DNA from: Gemmata obscuriglobus
GTDB lineage: Bacteria > Planctomycetota > Planctomycetia > Gemmatales > Gemmataceae
Length of the DNA: 32,000 nucleotides
Direction: 5' to 3'
Assembly: GCF_008065095.1 (NCBI RefSeq)
Contig: NZ_CP042911.1
Span: 6,420,001 to 6,452,000 of the forward strand
The position numbers and the translations under genes were made by a program. The notes below the pieces were generated by a model. That model saw only the letters and a list, made by a program, of their open reading frames with translations. It was not told the DNA's origin and made no database searches. Position 1 is the first letter of the stretch. Every line of letters begins with the position of its first letter. Shown piece after piece: positions 14,582-21,428 of the stretch.

Positions 14582-15798
14582 AGGGAGTGCTCCGCGAAGA
14601 GGCGATCGAGTTCCGCAGCCCGTGATCTTAACCGCTCGCGCACGTCTGCGGGTGTGCTTCCCGTCGCGAAAAAAGTGAGCACCGGCCACCCGGGTTGGAT
14701 CGCACTGCCCGGGTCGGGAATGTCGGCGAACCCCGGCAGCCGCCACGGATCGAACGCGCCCGCGAGGTCCGCGTCCCACGGCCCCGCGTTCGGAAAGGTG
14801 ATCGCGTGCGGGGCGTAGTAGATCGCTTTCCCGACGGGCGCACAGCCCCGCGGCGGCGCAACGAAATGAAAGCGGGTGGGGTTCGAGGAAAAACAATCGC
14901 GGTGAGTCGGCATGATCGCGGACCGCGTCGCTAATTCGATCACCTCGATCGCCGCGGTATAACGCGGGTTGACCTCGACCGGATGCAAGGAATCGGAGCG
15001 TTGAATGAAGTCGAGCCCCCAGCAGCCGCGGACGCCGATGGTCCGGTTGGCATCGAGCGTGTTGATCCAGAGGGCCGCACTTTGGGGCAGTTCGACCGGG
15101 CCAATGTTGCCACAATACGCGAACGGCTCGGCGTGCAGCCACGGTTCGCCGATGAGTTGTTGGGTGACGCCGAACAGTTCGGTTCCGTCCGGCCAAAACG
15201 GCATTTCGTTCAGGTCGCTCACGAACACCGCGGACATCGGCACGCCTTCGACCCACTCCTGAAAGTAGTGCCGGTCGGACGCGGCTTCGCCCGGTTCCGT
15301 GAAGCGGATTCCGATCCCCCCGCCGGACGCGAACGGCTTGCGGAGCCACCGGCCTTCGGTCGGGCACGGTTCACCGCGCGGGACCAGACGCGGGGGCTCG
15401 AACCCGGCACGCTGGAGTATCGGGAACAGTTCGAACGGATCGCGAGCGCGGGCCAACACCTCGGGCGGGTTCCCCCACAGCTCGCGCGATTCGGCGAGTC
15501 GGGCGATAACGTGCGGGTAATTCTCCAGACCTCCGGTGTAGAGCACCGGCCCCGGAGGGAATTGCATCGCAAGGTCGGGAATCGCGTCCGGGTAGCCGTC
15601 CGGCGGGCAGACGGCGCACGCGGAAACGACCCGCTTCAGGTCGCGGTCGGCGAACTGGTCAATTGCCCAAATAAAACGACTGTGAAGCCTGGCTCCGCGG
15701 GCGACAGGCGGCGAGGCGAATGTAGAAACGCCTGCGCGGGCCAGCGAATGAACCGCCGCCCGCGCGCTCGAACCGACAACGCCAACAACACCGGTCAC
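14578..15798 (-). CDS. ATP-grasp domain protein (predicted ATP-dependent carboligase type associated with H4MPT clusters)
   Basis: VGVVGSSARAAVHSLARAG N-terminus, WLRKPFASGGGIGIRF, WGLDFI...HPVEVNPRYTAAIEV. GTG at 15798 overlaps the TGA of the upstream gene (GTGA). Confidence 0.75.
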   Translation of the reverse strand: MTGVVGVVGSSARAAVHSLARAGVSTFASPPVARGARLHSRFIWAIDQFADRDLKRVVSACAVCPPDGYPDAIPDLAMQFPPGPVLYTGGLENYPHVIARLAESRELWGNPPEVLARARDPFELFPILQRAGFEPPRLVPRGEPCPTEGRWLRKPFASGGGIGIRFTEPGEAASDRHYFQEWVEGVPMSAVFVSDLNEMPFWPDGTELFGVTQQLIGEPWLHAEPFAYCGNIGPVELPQSAALWINTLDANRTIGVRGCWGLDFIQRSDSLHPVEVNPRYTAAIEVIELATRSAIMPTHRDCFSSNPTRFHFVAPPRGCAPVGKAIYYAPHAITFPNAGPWDADLAGAFDPWRLPGFADIPDPGSAIQPGWPVLTFFATGSTPADVRERLRSRAAELDRLFAEHSL

Positions 15799-18700
15799 CG
15801 GTCCGCCACCGGGGTCGGCAGGCCGAAGAACCGCCGCAGGGCCTGAAGCTCGGGGATAATCATCACCCGCATCACGTCCGCGTAGTCGTCGGTCCAGGCG
15901 TCCACGCCGTTCAGCTTCACGACCGGCCGGAACCCGTACCCGGTTTCCGCTTGCAGCGCGTCCATGAGAGTCGTGAACGGCCCGTTCCGCCGGATCAGGC
16001 CCGCGAACCGCTGCGCCTGCGCGTCGCCGGTTCGCTTGTCCAGGTAGTCCAGGACGGTCTCCTGCTGCTTCGTGAGCGCCTTGTCCAGCAGCGGCCCCAG
16101 TTCGGGGTACTTCACCCGAGCGATGCGGATGAGTTGCTCGCTCTGACTGTACTCGCCCATCATGTCGCCGAGTTCGGACGCGATTCGGTCGCCCAGATGC
16201 TCGCGTTTGCGGGCCAGTGCGACCCAGCTTGACGCCGTCTTCCCGGGCCGCCCCTCGGCGTTATCGTTCCACACCCGGGCCACGAGGTTGTGGTGCTCGG
16301 CGATGGCCGCGACCACCGGCTCCAGTTGCACGAACTTGTTCGAGATGTGCAGCGCCAGGATGCCGTCGTCCGTGAGCCGTTCGAGGTACAGGGCGACCGC
16401 CTCGTTGGTCAGCAGGTGGACCGGGATCGAGTCCGAGCTGAACGCGTCCACCAGCAGCAGCGCGTACTTGCGGTCGGTGTCTTCCTTGAGCTTCAGGCGG
16501 GCGTCGCCCATCCGGAAATCGATGTCGGCGCCGCGCTTGCGGGCGTCGTCCACGTAGGTGAACGGCCCCATCAGCGGCGCGACGGGCGCCGGCGCGGGCG
16601 CCACCTCGTGTTGCGTGACGGGGGCGGTGCCGGCGGGACGGGTCCGCGCCGCTTCTTCGTACTCCTCCTGGGTGTAAACGATGACCCCGCGGTCCTTCAT
16701 CGGCTCCTTACCGGGGAGACGGTTTTTCAGCTCCGCTTCGTACTCTTCTGGGGTGAAGATGCGGGCGCCCATGCGTTCCGCGTCCTTTCGCACGTCCGGG
16801 TCCGCGGTCGGGGCGGCGCCGCGCTCCCGCAGTGCCGTCTCATAGTCCTGCTTCGTGCGCAGGGTGTACATGGGCCCGAGCCGCTCCAGTCGCTTGCGCA
16901 CCTCGTCGTCGAGCGGAGCTGTTCCGAAGGCCCGCAGGCTCTTTTTGTAAGCCTCCCAGGCTTTCAGCCCCTTCTCGTGTTCCGCGCGTGCCCGGTCGTA
17001 CTCCTCCTGGGTCAGGATGCGGGCGCCCAGTTTTTCCACCTTGGCGCGTACGTCCGGGTCGGCGATCGGCGCGGAGCCGCGCTCCTTCAAGTCGCTCTCG
17101 TTCATCACCTTCCAGGGCGTTTCCACGATCCGCCGCACCGCCGGGTCGATCTCGTAGAACGTGAGCTTTTGGCCGGCGCCGACGTAGCAGGAGGCGCTAC
17201 CGGTGCCGAGCCCGACCATCGCCACCGGCGCGTTCGCGTCGGCGCCGCCCTTGCGGGTACGCAGCTCCTGGAACATCGCCCCGACCGGCCCGCTCCGGTG
17301 GTAGTACGTCAGCGGCTCTTCGCGCGGGTTGAAGCGGAGCTGCGTGCCGAACACCGCGACGTTGTCCCACGGGTTCAGCGCGGTGAGCCGCTGGAACTCG
17401 TCCGCCCAGTGCGGGCGGAACGTCTCGTTGATCTGCGTCCCGTGCAGCGTGGTCCCGTGGACGAGCCGCGTGTACTGCCCGCGCTGCTCCACCTTCAAGA
17501 TGCCGAAGAAGCTCCGCTCCGTGTAAACCACCTTCGCCTCGTCGCTGGCTTCGTCGCGGAAGGTGCTGATGCCCAGGATCGCCGCCACGCACAGGGTGAA
17601 CCGGAGCGGCCGGTCCACGAAGAAGAAGCACACCATCACCGGAACGGCGTACACGAAGATGTTGTGGACCATGCTGGCGCTGTCGAGCGACAGGGTGCTC
17701 GCGATGCTCCGCACGGCCCGGTTGTACCATTCGAACTGGCCGAACTTCAGCATCTGCCAGAACACTAGCCCGATCAGCACCGGCACCACGATGTCGAGCG
17801 CCAGAGCGACCTGCCGGTTCTGGTCGAGCAGCCGGACGAACCACCGGCCGGCGGCCGCCAACGGGGACGCCGCCGCCGCAGACGCGCCCACGTCGGGCGC
17901 GGTTTTGGCGTCCATGGGCTTTTGGTTCGGAGTACCATCTTCGGACGAGTTCAGCCGCGGCACCATGAGGCACGCGACCAGCAGCACCAGTTTGTACTCG
18001 TAGTCCTGCACGAACACGAGCGGGGCGACCAGCGAGTTGAAGATGCCGCCGAGCACGCCGCCGAGCGACATGATGAGGAAGTACGTCGTCAGGTACTGCG
18101 GGCTCGGGCGGTCGCGCGCCAGTTCGTAGTGGCACATGAGCGCCGCCGTGAAGAACGTCACGAGGTGCAGCAAAAGGCTGATGCCGACCCGGTTGCCGAT
18201 CACGCCCGACGTGATCGAGAACACGAGGAGCAGGATCATCACCGGCGCCAGGTTCCCGATCAGCAGCCGGAACCACGGCGGCACCCGGCCGAACGCGATG
18301 ATGAACGTGACCAGGTACAGTGCCAGCGGCCCGACCCAGAGCAGCGGGATGCTGGCGATGTCGGTGGTCATGTGGAAGGTGACCCCGAGCATGAGGCTGC
18401 TCGGGACGAACGCGAGGGCGGTCCACTTCGCCATCCGGCCCCACGACGGGGGCGCCTCGATCGGCGCCGGGGCGGCCTTCACGCCGGTCGCTCCGCCCGG
18501 GGCCACCCCGAGCGGGTTCACCGCCGCCTTTCCGCACGCGACGATCAGCGCCGCGAGGCCGACGAACCCGACCGCCCACACCCACGTCTGCCCGCCCTGG
18601 GTCAGGTTCGGCTCGATGAAGAGCGGGTAGCCGAGCAGCGAGATCAGGCTGCCGAAGTTGCTCGCGGCGTACAGGAAGTACGGGTCACGGGCCGACGGGT

Positions 18701-19133
18701 GCCCGGTGTACGTGAACCACTTCTGGAGCAGCGTCGCGGTGGTGGAGCACACGAAGAACGGTATCCCGATGGCCACCGTCATGATCGCCAGCACGCTCAG
18801 CACCGGGCTGGAGTCGCCCGACGGGGCCAGCGCCTCGACCACGGCAATGGGCGTGTGCTTCGCGCTGAACAGCGCGGCCAGCACGAACACCGCGACCGGC
18901 AGCGCCAGAACCGCGCAGTGAACGGCCCACTGCTTCTTGTGGTCCTTCTGGCGTGTCAGCCGGTCGGCGTAGAGGTAGCCGAGCAGCAACAGCGCCTGGA
19001 AGAACACCATGCAGCCGTTCCACACCGCCGGGCTGCCGCCCAGCAGGGGCAGCACCGCCTTGGCGACCATCGGCTGAACCATGAACAGCAGTGACGCGCT
19101 CACGAACATCGTGACGGCGAACAGCAGCGGCAC
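15795..19133 (-). CDS. Large polytopic membrane protein fused to a spermidine-synthase-like (class I SAM-fold) domain that carries an internal repeat insertion
   Basis: 1112-aa ORF. The N-terminal ~500 aa contains many hydrophobic helices and opens with LLFAVTMFVSASLLFMVQPMVAKAVLPLLGGSPAVWNGCMVFFQALLLLGYLYAD, typical of 'fused MFS/spermidine synthase' proteins. The C-terminal part has VAMVGLGTGSASCY...LTFYEIDP and GDARLKL...YALLLVDAFSSDSIPVHLLT. Confidence 0.85.
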   Translation of the reverse strand: MPLLFAVTMFVSASLLFMVQPMVAKAVLPLLGGSPAVWNGCMVFFQALLLLGYLYADRLTRQKDHKKQWAVHCAVLALPVAVFVLAALFSAKHTPIAVVEALAPSGDSSPVLSVLAIMTVAIGIPFFVCSTTATLLQKWFTYTGHPSARDPYFLYAASNFGSLISLLGYPLFIEPNLTQGGQTWVWAVGFVGLAALIVACGKAAVNPLGVAPGGATGVKAAPAPIEAPPSWGRMAKWTALAFVPSSLMLGVTFHMTTDIASIPLLWVGPLALYLVTFIIAFGRVPPWFRLLIGNLAPVMILLLVFSITSGVIGNRVGISLLLHLVTFFTAALMCHYELARDRPSPQYLTTYFLIMSLGGVLGGIFNSLVAPLVFVQDYEYKLVLLVACLMVPRLNSSEDGTPNQKPMDAKTAPDVGASAAAASPLAAAGRWFVRLLDQNRQVALALDIVVPVLIGLVFWQMLKFGQFEWYNRAVRSIASTLSLDSASMVHNIFVYAVPVMVCFFFVDRPLRFTLCVAAILGISTFRDEASDEAKVVYTERSFFGILKVEQRGQYTRLVHGTTLHGTQINETFRPHWADEFQRLTALNPWDNVAVFGTQLRFNPREEPLTYYHRSGPVGAMFQELRTRKGGADANAPVAMVGLGTGSASCYVGAGQKLTFYEIDPAVRRIVETPWKVMNESDLKERGSAPIADPDVRAKVEKLGARILTQEEYDRARAEHEKGLKAWEAYKKSLRAFGTAPLDDEVRKRLERLGPMYTLRTKQDYETALRERGAAPTADPDVRKDAERMGARIFTPEEYEAELKNRLPGKEPMKDRGVIVYTQEEYEEAARTRPAGTAPVTQHEVAPAPAPVAPLMGPFTYVDDARKRGADIDFRMGDARLKLKEDTDRKYALLLVDAFSSDSIPVHLLTNEAVALYLERLTDDGILALHISNKFVQLEPVVAAIAEHHNLVARVWNDNAEGRPGKTASSWVALARKREHLGDRIASELGDMMGEYSQSEQLIRIARVKYPELGPLLDKALTKQQETVLDYLDKRTGDAQAQRFAGLIRRNGPFTTLMDALQAETGYGFRPVVKLNGVDAWTDDYADVMRVMIIPELQALRRFFGLPTPVADR

Positions 19134-19533
19134 GGGTTACTACTCCGGGTTCGGCGGGGCGCGGGCAAGGTTCCTCGAAGTGTATCGAACCCGCGAAGGG
19201 GCGAGTAGTTTCGTGTTCATGAGAAGCACGCGGGAGAGTTGCCGAGGTTCCGGAACCCGAAGTCGGGCCACATCCGGCGCACGGCCCGTGAAATCGGGGC
19301 CGGGTCTGGCCCGCATAACGGTGCCGGACTTGTTCCCCCGACGCGCACACAGGAATAACCCCGCCAAGGCGTGCAGGCATCCGTTGCCGCCTACCGCTAA
19401 TACCCGGGCCGGCGGGCCAAGCGGCGGCGGCGCCTTTTGACGGCCGTGCAGTTGCAACATGCCCGTTCACGTGCCAAGGTCATTCCGGAAGAGTCGCAAG
19501 TCGGCCGACTCGAAAACATTAACTGAGGGGCTC

Positions 19534-19914
19534 ATGCGAATCGTTCTGGGTTGCGTGGCGGCGCTGGCGTTGTGCGGGTGGACGCGCGCAGACGACAAGG
19601 ACGAGAAGATCGACGCCAAGAAGCTGGTCGGCAAGTGGACCACAGAGAACAAGGAGCTGGGTGCCAAGCTCATCGTCAACTTCGCAAAGGATGGGAAGCT
19701 GGCCATAACGGTCAAGGCAAAGGGTGAGAAAGACGTCCAGATCAAAGGAACATACAAACTGACTGGAAACCAACTGACCATGACAATGGAGGGCGACGGC
19801 AAGGAGCACAAGGAAACGCTCACCGTTCTGGAACTGGACGAAGACGACCTTGTGACCAAGGATCCGAAGGGCAACAAGGACACTTACAAACGCGTTGAAG
19901 AGGACGACAAGTAA
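19534..19914 (+). CDS. Small secreted K/D/E-rich protein (lipocalin-like; resembles a Gemmata paralogous small-protein family from memory)
   Basis: ATG at 19534 is preceded by GAGGGG. Signal peptide MRIVLGCVAALALCGWTRA. LVGKWT...YKLTGNQLTM is a lipocalin-like pattern. G+C is visibly lower than in the neighbouring genes. Confidence 0.7.
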   Translation: MRIVLGCVAALALCGWTRADDKDEKIDAKKLVGKWTTENKELGAKLIVNFAKDGKLAITVKAKGEKDVQIKGTYKLTGNQLTMTMEGDGKEHKETLTVLELDEDDLVTKDPKGNKDTYKRVEEDDK

Positions 19915-19960
19915 ACCTGATACCGCCTTGATCCCCTGGCAACTCGCGAACACGTTCAGA

Positions 19961-19990
19961 GTGACCGGCGGCCGTTGCGATGCCGGTCAC
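19961..19990 (+). terminator. Hairpin terminator candidate downstream of the small secreted-protein gene
   Basis: GTGACCGGC (19961-19969) pairs with GCCGGTCAC (19982-19990), with a 12-nt loop, followed by the T-rich TTCGCATTTCTCGGGTTTGC. Confidence 0.45.
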
Positions 19991-20085
19991 TTCGCATTTC
20001 TCGGGTTTGCGTGCCACCGCCGTCCGGTGCCATTAAGGCCGCGGGCGCCGGGACAACTCGGCGCAGCACCGCGAAATGCGGTGAC

Positions 20086-20940
20086 GGAACCGGTTCAAAT
20101 CAGACTGCTGTGCGAACCGGTTCCGCCGCCGGGTTACTTTCGGATAGTGTGCAGGTTACACGCGTGCGGCAACCTGTGCCCGAATCAACCTTCACCGGAC
20201 CGGCATCGCGGACCGTCCGCGGCGTAACGCCGCAGCATTCGCTAACTGGACCGGCAGCGGAACCGATGGCCCTTGGCAATCTCCGGCGGAGGCACGTTCT
20301 GTCGTCGGGCTACTTTCTGGCTTGCCTGGGGATAAACCGGACAGGCAACCTGTGCCAGATTCTCCCCATCAATTGGTAGGCACCGAAAACCGTCCGCGGC
20401 GTAGCGCCGCAGGAACCTCTAACTCTTCAACAATAGAACGCAACCTCCGAGACAGTTTAATCGGGTTCCGCCGTCGGGCTACTTTCCCACCGTGCGTCGC
20501 GACCCCGGACGGGGACCACCTGTGGAACAAGGGGCATCGCGCTGACAGGCACTGAGAACCGTCCGCGGCGTAACGCCGCAGGAACCGCTAACTCCGCGAC
20601 GGCGGAACCGTTCCCACAAACAACACAGGGCGAGCGGCGGTTACTTTCCAACCTGTCACCTCCGGCGCCGGGGTGTCGATTCCTGATCGATGCCCCGACG
20701 GCGGCGTGCCTCCGGCACGCTGAACTGGTCGTAACCAGAAACCGCCCGCGGCGTAGCACCGCAGATCAAGCTAACTCGGACCGCTCGCCCCGTGTACCTC
20801 GGTGTGGGCTGTAGGGCTACTTTCCTCCTAGGGCATCGTAGGCCGTTGCATACAACCTGTGTGTCCGCAACGGCCTGACGTTCCTGCGATCGGCACTGCG
20901 AACCACCCGCGGCGTAACACCGCAGATCAAGCTAACCGGG
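20086..20940. repeat. Array of five tandem composite repeat units (candidate ncRNA genes or phased binding sites); not CRISPR-like
   Basis: Units are approximately 20131-20246, 20307-20423, 20476-20592, 20638-20775 and 20814-20936.
- Block A, GGGYTACTTTC: at 20131, 20307, 20476, 20638 and 20814.
- Block B, ACCTGTG: at 20172, 20348, 20518, 20651 and 20855.
- Block C, GGCAYYGNGAACCGYCCGCGGCGTARCRCCGCAG-N5-6-CTAAC: CCGYCCGC anchor at 20213, 20390, 20559, 20742 and 20903.
No conserved reading frame. Confidence 0.8.
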
Positions 20941-21182
20941 CCGACAACCCACACCACGTTTCAGCTCTCGCCGCGCCAGAGTTCTGCGTTATCCGGTCGA
21001 GTGATGGAGCCACCGATAGCCGGCTCTGCGTGATTAGCGCAGCAAACCACATTGGCCCCCCCACCAATCGGCAACTCGATCCAGGCTACACAACTGCCGG
21101 ACGTACCACAAGCGGTTCGATCCGCCAACAACCGGGTGTGTCGCGATTGTTTGCGAAGTCCGAGTTGAGTTCAGATATGCGA

Positions 21183-21220
21183 CGAGCCCCGGTGCCTTCT
21201 GCGGAAGGTACCGGGGCTCG
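21183..21220. other. Strong 17-bp hairpin downstream of the repeat array, about 210 nt beyond the prkA stop
   Basis: CGAGCCCCGGTGCCTTC (21183-21199), loop TGCG, GAAGGTACCGGGGCTCG (21204-21220). The single non-Watson-Crick pair is G.U on the plus strand and C.A on the minus strand. Confidence 0.5.
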
Positions 21221-21428
21221 CGTATTCGCGCTGCCGGGGAGTGGAAGGATGGGGGTGCCCTGAGCCGCACCCTCCAATGCTTATGGCTGCTGCTTCCGCC
21301 CTGACCAGGTTCACACCTTCAGGTCGGTCAGGCCCCCACCCATCCAAACCCCGGCGGCGGTATCTCCAAGCTCAAAGCGACAAGTACCAAGGCAAAACTC
21401 GCCGACACTTTGCCTTCGACTTTCGACT

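What the first reader, a model, noticed from the sequence alone, without database searches (positions are those of the whole stretch)
20086..20940. Five tandem composite repeat units with fixed-length variable inserts in a 1.5-kb ORF-free gap
The gap between the small secreted-protein gene (stop 19914) and prkA (stop 21429) has no credible ORF. It contains five head-to-tail units, each built from three conserved blocks.

Block positions:
- Block A, GGGYTACTTTC: at 20131, 20307, 20476, 20638 and 20814 (periods 176, 169, 162, 176).
- Block B, ACCTGTG: at 20172, 20348, 20518, 20651 (ACCTGTC) and 20855.
- Block C, about 45 nt, GGCAYYGNGAACCGYCCGCGGCGTARCRCCGCAG-N5-6-CTAAC: CCGYCCGC anchor at 20213, 20390, 20559, 20742 and 20903.

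Spacing:
- A to B is 41, 41, 42, (13), 41 nt.
- B to C is 41, 42, 41, (91), 48 nt.
- The roughly 30 nt between the blocks is unrelated in sequence from unit to unit, so these are constant-length, variable-content inserts. Unit 4 is rearranged.
- The tail from C to the next A shortens progressively (94, 86, 79, 72 nt).

Evidence against coding: the periods are not multiples of three, and block C falls in different frames in different units.

Hints of RNA structure:
- Block C contains the hairpin GCGGCG-TAA-CGCCGC. In units 4 and 5 the substitution produces C.A on the plus strand but G.U on the minus strand. This weakly suggests an RNA read from the minus strand, the same direction as prkA.
- Block B sits in the loop of a mini-stem whose arms differ between units while staying complementary: GGCA/TGCC in units 1-2, CCA/TGG in unit 3, ACA/TGT in unit 5.

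Possible interpretations:
- A tandem battery of small structured RNA genes with unit-specific 'guide-like' segments.
- One long modular ncRNA.
- Protein-binding blocks phased about four helical turns apart.

I do not recognise it as any described RNA family or repeat class.
Basis: seen in the sequence. Interest (0 to 1): 0.85.

Follow-up and report, generated by a model that had tools for sequence, protein, structure and literature searches.

The report
Tandem retron template-RNA genes without RT
The five repeats are five tandem copies of the small RNA gene that a bacterial retron reverse transcriptase copies into single-stranded DNA, sitting far from any reverse transcriptase gene, which is an unusual "split, multi-template" layout for a known kind of system.

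Summary
There are five head-to-tail units of 160-180 nt at window 20116-20956, with blocks A, B and C where stated.

They are not a new RNA class. Each unit is a retron msr-msd non-coding RNA of the type XIII (Mx162-like) family, read from the minus strand. Each has:
- a 13-17 bp closing stem (a2/a1) that differs between units but stays complementary;
- a UAGC priming-G motif;
- a near-invariant 8-bp msr hairpin (block C);
- a variable msd hairpin with a conserved ACAGGU apex (block B);
- a conserved 3' junction (block A).

A covariance model built from the five units finds the same RNA directly upstream of RT_XIII genes in other phyla. It also finds it in 3-6-unit arrays beside Gemmataceae RT_XIII operons (HEAT-aldo/keto-reductase protein, RT, FGE-sulfatase).

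The 32-kb window has no RT. In Gemmata algarum the RT operon and the RNA genes lie on different contigs. RT-less arrays of at least 10-11 units occur in metagenomes.

My best reading is a satellite array of templates used in trans (inferred, not shown). It is a new variant of a known kind. The closest precedent is Nannocystis Ne160.

The parts
20800..20956 (-). Unit 5 (first in transcription order). a2 arm 20956-20944; UAGC with candidate priming G at 20932; msr hairpin 20925-20907; msd region 20906-20823, with hairpin apex (block B) at 20855-20861; 3' junction AAGUAGCC 20822-20815; a1 arm 20812-20800.
   Evidence: Covariance model hit of 132 bits. Parts mapped. Arms also reported as inverted repeat I12.
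20623..20795 (-). Unit 4. a2 20795-20780; priming G 20771; msr hairpin 20764-20746; longer msd region 20745-20647, with an extra hairpin and apex CAGG (plus-strand CCTG at 20682-20685); 3' junction 20646-20639; a1 20638-20623.
   Evidence: Covariance model hit of 105.7 bits, found only with filters off. Parts mapped. Arms reported as I7.
20464..20609 (-). Unit 3. a2 20609-20597; priming G 20588; msr hairpin 20581-20563; msd region 20562-20485, with apex at 20518-20524; 3' junction 20484-20477; a1 20476-20464.
   Evidence: Covariance model hit of 143 bits. Parts mapped. Arms reported as I10, 13 of 13 complementary.
20293..20442 (-). Unit 2. a2 20442-20428; UAGA variant of the priming motif with G at 20419; msr hairpin 20412-20394; msd region 20393-20316, with apex at 20348-20354; 3' junction 20315-20308; a1 20307-20293. 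The closing stem is 15 bp with four G.U pairs and one A.C mismatch on the minus strand.
   Evidence: Covariance model hit of 150 bits. Parts mapped. Stem composition read from the sequence.
20116..20267 (-). Unit 1 (last in transcription order). a2 20267-20252; priming G 20242; msr hairpin 20235-20217; msd region 20216-20140, with apex at 20172-20178; 3' junction 20139-20132; a1 20131-20116.
   Evidence: Covariance model hit of 147 bits. Parts mapped. Arms reported as I6.
21245..21340 (-). SRP (4.5S) RNA gene, upstream of the array on the same strand. It is context, not part of the retron element.
   Evidence: Rfam RF00169 at 47.9 bits, above the gathering score. The gene is conserved after prkA in relatives L143-L146.
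21183..21220 (-). Terminator-like hairpin after the SRP RNA. Homology with the closest relative ends just beyond it, at about 21180.
   Evidence: Inverted repeat I4, 17 nt arms, 94% complementary. Alignment with L146.

Best explanation
**What it is.** Window 20116-20956 (minus strand) is an array of five genes for retron msr-msd non-coding RNAs of the type XIII (Mx162-like) family.

**How each unit folds.**
- The 5' arm (a2) pairs with the 3' arm (a1).
- A conserved GAGUUAGC follows a2 and carries the guanosine whose 2'-OH would prime reverse transcription.
- The invariant hairpin CUGCGGYGYUACGCCGCGG, plus the GGUU...GUGCC...CAGUU stretch after it, would be the msr part that the reverse transcriptase recognises.
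- The variable hairpin capped by A-CAGG-U, together with the GGAAAGUARCC junction next to a1, would be the msd template.
- Copying would start at block A, giving DNA 5'-GGYTACTTTCC..., and run through the hairpin. Each unit would yield its own roughly 70-95 nt msDNA (my estimate from the lengths of the msd regions; not measured).

**Where the enzyme is.** No reverse transcriptase is encoded in the window. I infer that the templates are used in trans by a type XIII RT operon elsewhere in the genome (HEAT/aldo-keto-reductase protein, RT, FGE-sulfatase protein), as a satellite array of a split, multi-template retron.

**Shown versus inferred.**
- Shown: family identity, structure, strand, linkage of this RNA to RT_XIII in other genomes, and unlinked RT and RNA genes within one Gemmata genome.
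- Inferred: transcription, use in trans, msDNA production and biological role.

**Confidence.** About 0.9 for the family identity and about 0.5-0.6 for use in trans. The figure given (0.8) is for the statement as a whole, weighted towards identity.
For: **1. Structure**
- The closing stem is 14 pairs. All 14 show changes on both sides, and 93.7% of cells are paired. None of 500 shuffles reached the observed covariation, and slid controls give 36-54% paired.
- Across 37 units the mean ungapped closing stem is 14 bp, with unrelated arm sequences.

**2. Priming motif**
- NAGC lies 4-9 nt before the hairpin in 86 units: TAGC 67, CAGC 10, GAGC 7.
- These are the variants listed for validated retrons, including Mx162, Sa163 and Mx65 (PMC6868368).

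**3. Linkage to the RT**
- Model R1, built from the five units, hits RNAs lying between SWIM_XIII and RT_XIII genes in L052, L007 and L129. PADLOC scores are RT_XIII 1e-141 and SWIM_XIII 6e-149.
- It hits five copies directly upstream of RT_XIII in the Polyangiaceae locus L049.
- It hits six copies after RT-FGE in the Gemmataceae locus L140, and three copies beside HEAT-AKR/RT in L142. One L142 copy scores 107 bits and has the same GGAGUUAGCG motif and a similar a2 arm.
- About ten more loci carry the signature hairpin upstream of RT_XIII.

**4. Published type XIII properties**
- Type XIII has its own distinct ncRNA structure and includes experimentally validated msDNA producers (PMC7736814).

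**5. Unlinked layout**
- The window has no RT, SWIM or HEAT homologue even at tblastn E-values up to 50.
- In Gemmata algarum JC673 the RT operon (contig 222, L150) has no unit within 8 kb, even with filters off. Two units lie on contig 77 (L074).
- The Gemmata sp. G18 RT locus likewise has no unit.
- RT-less arrays of at least 11 units (L122) and at least 10 units (L136) occur in metagenomes.

**6. Conservation of the msd apex**
- ACAGGT is present in 42 of 79 distinct units, against a shuffle mean of 1.3, and sits mid-way through the msd region.

**7. Intact units**
- All five window units keep every element. Their arms have diverged by compensatory change, which argues for selection on the fold.
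Against: - No RT was shown in the source genome. I could not scan that genome.
- There are no expression or msDNA data.
- The candidate priming G lies about 8 nt beyond the last Watson-Crick pair of a2/a1, not directly at the stem end as in Ec86. The conserved internal loop there is unexplained.
- Unit 2 has UAGA rather than UAGC.
- Spacers between units are as short as about 5 nt (U5 to U4), and no sigma-70 consensus promoter was found. Transcription must therefore be polycistronic or use an unrecognised promoter.
- The array is absent from the syntenic prkA-SRP RNA locus of relatives whose PrkA is 98, 95, 92 and 89% identical. It is therefore evolutionarily unstable, which also fits a selfish or decaying element.
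- The invariance of the msr hairpin is partly imposed by the search pattern used to collect homologues.
Confidence: 0.8

Rival explanations
1. The units are relic or pseudogene copies. They would be duplicated retron ncRNA genes spread by unequal crossing-over or retrotransposition, no longer used by any RT and slowly decaying.
For: - There is no RT within 32 kb.
- The array is absent at the syntenic locus in close relatives, and homology ends right after the SRP terminator.
- Lampson and Rice interpreted RT-less msr/msd repeats in Nannocystis as products of duplication or retrotransposition, as summarised in PMC6868368.
- Unit 2 carries UAGA.
Against: - All five units keep complementary a2/a1 arms although the arm sequences differ. 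They also keep an intact msr hairpin, apex and 3' junction. Neutral decay would break pairs rather than compensate them.
- The same RT-less pattern recurs in many genomes and in arrays of at least 10-11 units.
- In G. algarum the RT operon has no cis ncRNA at all, so unlinked copies are the only candidate templates found there. That genome was not scanned as a whole.
Confidence: 0.12
2. The units form a non-autonomous, SINE-like retroelement. They would multiply and disperse through the genome by borrowing the retron RT, with no benefit to the host.
For: - Several loci occur per genome in unrelated housekeeping contexts. One Frigoriglobus MAG has three contigs with units.
- Presence at the prkA locus is variable.
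- One locus lies next to an integrase (L110) and one next to a transposase fragment (L079).
Against: - A cDNA primed at the branch G would carry only the msd part. The dispersed copies contain the whole a2-msr-msd-a1 unit.
- Units within one array differ strongly in their stems, which does not fit recent bursts of copying.
- No target-site duplications or conserved termini were seen, though I did not search for them systematically.
- There are almost no copies on viral contigs.
Confidence: 0.1
3. The units are RT-independent structured small RNAs. They would be retron-derived RNAs taken over for another role, such as protein sponging or regulation, and working as RNA only.
For: The units are strongly structured, conserved, multi-copy and unlinked from the RT. 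Their position next to the SRP RNA gene suggests a housekeeping RNA neighbourhood.
Against: - The elements under strongest conservation are exactly those that retron reverse transcription needs: paired ends, NAGC, the msr hairpin and the template junction.
- The same elements are conserved in RT-linked copies.
- The SRP neighbourhood is not conserved for units elsewhere.
Confidence: 0.08
4. This is the first reader's reading: a battery of guide-RNA-like genes, or a CRISPR-like array, whose roughly 30-nt variable inserts target other nucleic acids.
For: Conserved blocks alternate with variable segments of near-constant length.
Against: - The variable segments pair with each other within each unit, forming the msd stem and the a2/a1 stem.
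- blastn finds no match to phage or plasmid records.
- Units are 160-180 nt with three conserved blocks each, unlike a repeat-spacer array.
- Linkage elsewhere is to a retron RT, not to cas genes.
Confidence: 0.02

Closest known systems
Type XIII retrons (RT clade 10: Mx162/Retron-Mxa1, Mx65, Sa163, Ne144; Mestre et al. 2020, PMC7736814)
   Same: - The RNA is homologous to ncRNAs sitting directly upstream of RT_XIII.
- It has a paired a2/a1 stem, an (U/C/G)AGC priming motif, a short msr hairpin and a long msd hairpin.
- Relatives carry HEAT/ARM-type accessory proteins, with a weak hit to HEAT-ARM_XIII.
   Different: - There are five tandem ncRNA genes here instead of one.
- No RT, SWIM or HEAT gene lies within 32 kb.
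- The Gemmataceae RT operon carries an FGE-sulfatase protein and a HEAT-aldo/keto-reductase protein and has no SWIM protein.
- The predicted msDNAs are shorter than Mx162's 162 nt.
Retron-Nex1 (Ne160) of Nannocystis exedens (Lampson and Rice 1997, as summarised in PMC6868368)
   Same: [quoted passage not shown] That is an RT-less repeat cluster in the same myxobacterial RT group.
   Different: - The phylum differs (Myxococcota versus Planctomycetota).
- I could not read the original paper or compare sequences.
- Here the absence of an RT holds over 32 kb, and the same layout is shown across many Gemmataceae genomes with arrays of up to at least 11 units.
Engineered 'multitrons' (retron ncRNA or msd arrays for multiplex editing; PMC10370050)
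   Same: One RT would serve several arrayed msr-msd units, each with a different msd, expressed as an array.
   Different: Those arrays are synthetic, built on Eco1. This one is natural, and that paper's text does not describe natural arrays.
Diversity-generating retroelements (RT plus an FGE-sulfatase/C-type-lectin target protein)
   Same: The Gemmataceae operon pairs an RT with an FGE-sulfatase-fold protein.
   Different: - The RT scores as retron RT_XIII.
- No template-repeat/variable-repeat pair links the FGE gene and the RNA units in L140.

Membership tests
Retron msr-msd ncRNA (type XIII) | The 5' and 3' ends of the transcript pair (a2/a1 inverted repeats), enclosing msr and msd. | tested here: met
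   The five units have 13-17 bp stems. In the 38-sequence alignment all 14 pairs show changes on both sides, 93.7% of cells are paired, and 0 of 500 shuffles reach the observed value.
Retron msr-msd ncRNA (type XIII) | A priming guanosine in a conserved (T/C/G)AGC motif at the inner end of a2. | tested here: inconclusive
   UAGC is present in 4 of 5 units and UAGA in unit 2. Among 86 related units the counts are TAGC 67, CAGC 10, GAGC 7. However, the motif lies about 6 nt past the last Watson-Crick pair of a2, and the 2'-5' branch itself cannot be tested here.
Retron msr-msd ncRNA (type XIII) | One to three short conserved msr hairpins, followed by a long msd stem-loop. | tested here: met
   The 8-bp hairpin is invariant apart from G-C to G.U changes. 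Every unit has a variable long hairpin, and the ACAGGT apex is present in 42 of 79 units.
Retron msr-msd ncRNA (type XIII) | Sequence and structure homology to ncRNAs that lie next to type XIII RT genes. | tested here: met
   Model R1 hits RNAs next to RT_XIII in L052, L007, L129, L049, L140, L141 and L142 at 45-107 bits. The RT identity comes from PADLOC.
Retron (complete system) | The ncRNA gene is contiguous with a retron RT gene. | tested here: not met
   tblastn with RT, SWIM and HEAT queries finds nothing in the 32-kb window even at E-values up to 50. The 10 kb to the right of the window holds rpoB, rpoC and ribosomal protein genes.
Retron (complete system) | Production of branched msDNA. 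| not testable with these tools
   This needs nucleic-acid extraction or sequencing of small ssDNA.
CRISPR array | Short identical direct repeats separated by unique spacers of similar length, usually near cas genes. | tested here: not met
   Units are 160-180 nt with three conserved blocks. The variable parts are self-complementary. Tandem Repeats Finder reports no array. Loci elsewhere are linked to an RT.
REP/MITE-type dispersed repeat | Conserved terminal inverted repeats and many near-identical copies. | tested here: not met
   The terminal arms differ in sequence between copies and covary. Copies are dispersed, but no whole genome could be scanned to count them.
Any Rfam 15 family | A covariance-model match to one of the 4227 Rfam 15 families. 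| tested here: not met
   No hit lies over the units at the gathering threshold. At E-values up to 10 only weak, partial matches (15, 13 and 13 bits; BTH_s19, P17, Acido-Lenti-1) touch the array. No unit in 19 related loci is hit either.
Diversity-generating retroelement | A template repeat and a variable repeat linking the RT locus to a target gene. | tested here: not met
   No repeat is shared between the FGE-sulfatase gene and the RNA units in L140.

The most novel reading that the evidence does not exclude
Gemmataceae may run a naturally 'split, multiplexed' retron. A single type XIII RT operon (HEAT-aldo/keto-reductase protein, RT, FGE-sulfatase protein) would serve many unlinked ncRNA genes. 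These are scattered singly and in tandem arrays of 2 to at least 11 units, and each would template a different hairpin msDNA with a common CCTG loop. The cell would then carry a repertoire of msDNAs instead of one. That would be a natural counterpart of engineered multitrons and would depart from the rule that a retron is one RT with one contiguous ncRNA.
Probability: 0.5. Interest if true: 0.72.

Novelty: new variant of a known kind. Interest (0 to 1): 0.6.

Why it matters
- Retrons are defined as an RT with one contiguous ncRNA gene. This locus and its relatives show a lineage in which the template genes are multiplied, diversified and physically separated from the RT.
- If the units are used in trans, one RT makes a repertoire of msDNAs. 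That bears on how type XIII retrons sense or act, since their function is still unknown.
- It would also give natural design rules for arrayed retron templates used in multiplex genome editing, for example unit-specific a1/a2 arms, 5-50 nt spacers and a constant msr.
- In practice, retron finders that anchor on the RT gene will miss these RNA genes, and Rfam has no model that detects them.

Tried and rejected
**Searches that found nothing over the units**
- Rfam at the gathering threshold found nothing over the units, and at E-values up to 10 only weak partial matches (13-15 bits) touch the array. The only real hit in the region is the SRP RNA.
- ARAGORN found no tRNA or tmRNA.
- Tandem Repeats Finder did not see the array.
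- The sigma-70 and terminator scans were not informative.
- blastn against phages and plasmids gave no match.
- The viral-contig scan gave three weak hits without an RT.

**Hypotheses tested and dropped**
- A sixth, degenerate unit at 19950-20110. There is only a stray a2-like arm and a hairpin-like fragment, scoring about 5-11 bits.
- A conserved protein neighbour for the orphan units. The flanks are unrelated housekeeping genes.
- A DGR reading of the RT plus FGE-sulfatase pairing. No template/variable repeat pair was found.
- Integron attC, Y RNA, 6S RNA, ToxI-like and bridge-RNA ideas. I raised these from memory and dropped them once linkage to RT_XIII was found.

**Attempts that failed**
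- Identifying the source genome. The lipocalin-like protein is not on record. The EF-G look-up gave only a Logan contig from SRR5887509.
- Reading Lampson and Rice 1997, and the September 2026 'Minerva' preprint that mentions 'ncRNA array'. Neither is held.

**Weak result**
- A direct-repeat-like covariation between the 5' and 3' junction motifs is only weakly above control: 3.15 against 2.83 +/- 0.10 matches out of 7.
Full report
**1. Checking the observation**

- Block A (GGGYTACTTTC) is found at 20131, 20307, 20476, 20638 and 20814 and nowhere else in the window. None of 100 shuffles reached five matches.
- The core of block C (CCGCGGCGTARCRCCGCAG) is found five times, at 20217, 20394, 20563, 20746 and 20907.
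- Tandem Repeats Finder does not report the array, because the units are only about 62% identical column by column.

The gap is not otherwise empty. Rfam places the SRP RNA gene at 21245-21340 on the minus strand at 47.9 bits. A strong hairpin follows it at 21183-21220.

**2.

The repeat finder reported long inverted repeats that bracket each unit:

| Unit | Outer arm | Inner arm |
|---|---|---|
| 1 | 20118-20132 | 20251-20265 |
| 3 | 20464-20476 | 20597-20609 |
| 4 | 20623-20637 | 20781-20795 |
| 5 | 20801-20815 | 20941-20955 |

- Unit 2 has a 15-bp equivalent that is rich in G.U pairs on the minus strand.
- The arm sequences differ between units but stay complementary. Each unit is therefore a discrete RNA of about 150-175 nt with paired ends.
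- Folding each unit gives a closing stem on both strands, but the minus strand is more stable in all five units.
- For the whole array the minus strand folds at -409.7 kcal/mol (z -5.9). The plus strand folds at -370.7 kcal/mol (z -2.4).
- The block C hairpin has a U.G at its second pair in every unit. On the plus strand that position would be a C-A mismatch.

**3. Relatives**

- No Rfam family matches the units at the gathering threshold. At E-values up to 10 only weak, partial matches of 13-15 bits touch the array.
- I scanned one genome per species for the block C core. This returned 120 loci, many of them chance hits in high-G+C genomes.
- A covariance model built from the five minus-strand units (R1) separated real relatives from chance. 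Full-length matches appear in Gemmata, Frigoriglobus, Fimbriiglobus and other Planctomycetota. They also appear in Myxococcota, Anaerolineales and Armatimonadia, often as two to five tandem copies.
- On the 38 distinct sequences, all 14 pairs of the closing stem show changes on both sides and 93.7% of cells are paired. None of 500 shuffles reached the observed covariation, and slid controls fall to 36-54% paired.
- The 8-bp hairpin is invariant apart from G-C to G.U changes. Part of that invariance is imposed by the search pattern.

**4. Identity**

- In the Anaerolineales locus L052 the RNA lies between two genes on the same strand, 42 nt upstream of the second. Pfam calls that second gene RVT_1. 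PADLOC calls it RT_XIII (1e-141) and calls the upstream gene SWIM_XIII (6e-149).
- L007 and L129 have the same arrangement.
- In the Polyangiaceae locus L049, five tandem copies sit directly upstream of an RT_XIII gene.
- By tblastn, about ten further loci from the scan carry the signature hairpin within about 1 kb upstream of an RT_XIII homologue.
- Type XIII is the retron class of RT clade 10. It has its own ncRNA structure and includes the experimentally validated Mx162, Mx65, Sa163 and Ne144 (PMC7736814).

The anatomy of the units fits the retron msr-msd plan described there and in PMC6868368:
- paired a2/a1 ends;
- a priming G inside (T/C/G)AGC: here UAGC in four units and UAGA in unit 2, and TAGC 67, CAGC 10, GAGC 7 among 86 related units;
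- a short conserved msr hairpin;
- a long variable msd hairpin.

| Block | What it is |
|---|---|
| C | The priming motif plus the msr hairpin |
| B | The conserved A-CAGG-U apex of the msd hairpin (ACAGGT in 42 of 79 units against 1.3 expected) |
| A | The junction next to a1, where cDNA synthesis would begin |
| 'Variable inserts' | Largely the two arms of the msd stem |
| 'Tails' between units | The a1 and a2 arms plus short spacers |

**5. The Gemmataceae version**

- An RT search shows that Gemmataceae encode this RT family. Hits include Frigoriglobus tundricola, Gemmata sp. JC673 and Gemmata sp. G18. PADLOC scores them as RT_XIII at about 1e-106 to 1e-108.
- The operon is a HEAT plus aldo/keto-reductase protein, transcribed divergently from the RT, which is followed by an FGE-sulfatase protein. 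There is no SWIM gene.
- In MAG locus L140, six tandem RNA units follow the FGE-sulfatase gene on the RT strand.
- In L142, three units lie beside the HEAT-AKR gene. One scores 107 bits and shares GGAGUUAGCG and an a2 arm like that of window units 1-3.
- No template/variable repeat pair links the FGE gene to the units, so this is not a DGR.

**6. The unlinked layout**

- The window has no RT, SWIM or HEAT homologue even at tblastn E-values up to 50. The 10 kb beyond its right end encodes rpoB, rpoC, S12 and S7.
- In Gemmata algarum JC673 the RT operon on contig 222 has essentially no intergenic space and no R1 hit within 8 kb, even with filters off. Two units lie on contig 77 of the same assembly (L074).
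- Gemmata sp. G18 shows the same empty RT locus.
- A metagenome scan with the priming motif plus the hairpin returned 18 loci. One 4.2-kb contig holds at least 11 tandem units, and one 1.9-kb contig consists of at least 10 units. Only the Armatimonadia-like locus has an RT.
- The flanks of the other loci are unrelated housekeeping genes, such as MetH, menaquinone synthesis, a sigma factor and a porin.

**7. Synteny**

- prkA followed by the SRP RNA is conserved in relatives whose PrkA is 98, 95, 92 and 89% identical. None of them has a unit there.
- The alignment with the closest relative ends just after the SRP terminator, at about window 21180.
- The array therefore sits in a variable segment and is not a stable feature of this locus.

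**8. Mechanism and confidence**

- I am confident (about 0.9) that these are five type XIII retron msr-msd genes on the minus strand.
- That they are functional templates used in trans by an RT operon elsewhere is inference (about 0.5-0.6). It rests on three points: all elements needed for retron priming are preserved, the arms have diverged by compensatory change, and the G. algarum case shows RT and RNA genes unlinked in one genome.
- The main rivals are relic copies, a SINE-like non-autonomous element, and RT-independent RNAs.
- Open points:
  - the priming G lies about 8 nt beyond the last canonical pair of a2/a1;
  - no promoter was recognised;
  - spacers of about 5 nt imply a polycistronic precursor.

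**9. Novelty**

- The kind is known. A partial precedent exists: Retron-Nex1 (Ne160) of Nannocystis is described as several duplicated msr/msd repeats without an RT within a kilobase (PMC6868368). I could not read the original paper.
- Arrayed retron templates are otherwise known to me only as engineered 'multitrons'. That paper's text contains no mention of natural or native arrays (PMC10370050).
- A September 2026 preprint mentions 'ncRNA array' together with reverse transcriptases, but it could not be read. Priority therefore cannot be settled here.
- I rate the finding a new variant of a known kind, of moderate to good interest.

Noticed in passing
window 21245-21340 (-) and 21183-21220: An SRP (4.5S) RNA gene and a terminator-like hairpin lie directly after prkA. 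The prkA-SRP RNA pairing is conserved in Gemmataceae relatives (L143-L146). The hairpin shows compensatory changes relative to L146.
   Followed up: yes
window about 21180 and downstream (lower coordinates): Homology with the closest relative (PrkA 98% identical, L146) stops right after the SRP terminator. In relatives, the gene after the SRP RNA is DUF444, TPR or a Pkinase-FGE-sulfatase gene. Here it is the array, then a lipocalin-like gene (19459-19914) and a 1112-aa ORF. This looks like a rearrangement or insertion breakpoint.
   Followed up: partly
L140 5315-11414; L142 5213-9509; L150 and L151 5846-10525: Gemmataceae carry a type XIII-like operon made of a HEAT plus aldo/keto-reductase protein, the RT and an FGE-sulfatase protein, with no SWIM gene. 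In L036 my ORF call runs the RT C-terminal part and the FGE domain together in one reading frame. PADLOC recognises only the RT, plus a weak HEAT-ARM_XIII hit.
   Followed up: partly
L062 1616-1662 (-) and 1762-1808 (+); L086 1093-1138 (-); window 20703-20718 (weak): Rfam Acido-Lenti-1 RNA motifs score above the gathering threshold close to retron units in L062, about 50-240 nt downstream of the two units. L086 has one about 3 kb from its unit. The window has only a 13-bit partial hit, inside unit 4.
   Followed up: no
All units: 5' GGAG(G/U)UAGC and 3' GGAGGUA-AGUAGC / GGAAAGUAGCC: The motif before the priming G and the motif before a1 look like direct repeats that change together in some lineages, for example GAAGGUCAGC / GAAGGUCAGUG in L026 and GAGCUAGC / GAGCAAGUAG in L049. 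Over 74 units the signal is weak: 3.15 against 2.83 +/- 0.10 matches out of 7.
   Followed up: partly
window 20116-20131, 20252-20267, 20464-20476, 20597-20609 (and the unit 2 arms): Units 1-3 share nearly the same a2/a1 arm sequence (GGUUCCGC...). In the minimum-free-energy fold of the whole array, the a2 of unit 3 pairs with the a1 of unit 1. Units 4 and 5 have unrelated arms. In a polycistronic transcript, cross-unit pairing could matter.
   Followed up: no
window 20419: Unit 2 has UAGA instead of UAGC at the candidate priming site. CAGA is reported for Ec67 in PMC6868368. Unit 2 is also the unit with the most G.U-rich closing stem.
   Followed up: no
Upstream flanks of single units in L003, L006, L022, L062, L074, L094, L095, L104, L117 and others: A -10-like box (TACACT, TATAAT, TAAACT or TAAGCT) lies about 6-10 nt before the a2 arm of many units, suggesting each has its own promoter. 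In the window only unit 2 has such a box (TAAACT, plus-strand coordinates about 20456-20461).
   Followed up: partly
window 15795-19133 (-): A 1112-aa ORF has no Pfam or PADLOC match and no homologue in any fetched locus.
   Followed up: partly
window 20059-20096: Just downstream of unit 1, on the RNA strand, there is an a2-like arm (GAACCGGUUCCGUCACCG) and a degenerate copy of the hairpin core (GCGGUGCUGCGCCG). These may be the remnant of a sixth unit. The model gives only about 5-11 bits.
   Followed up: partly
L074 2955-4148 (-): In Gemmata algarum the two unlinked units lie next to a stand-alone aldo/keto reductase gene. The same domain is fused to HEAT repeats in the RT operon. This may be coincidence.
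   Followed up: no
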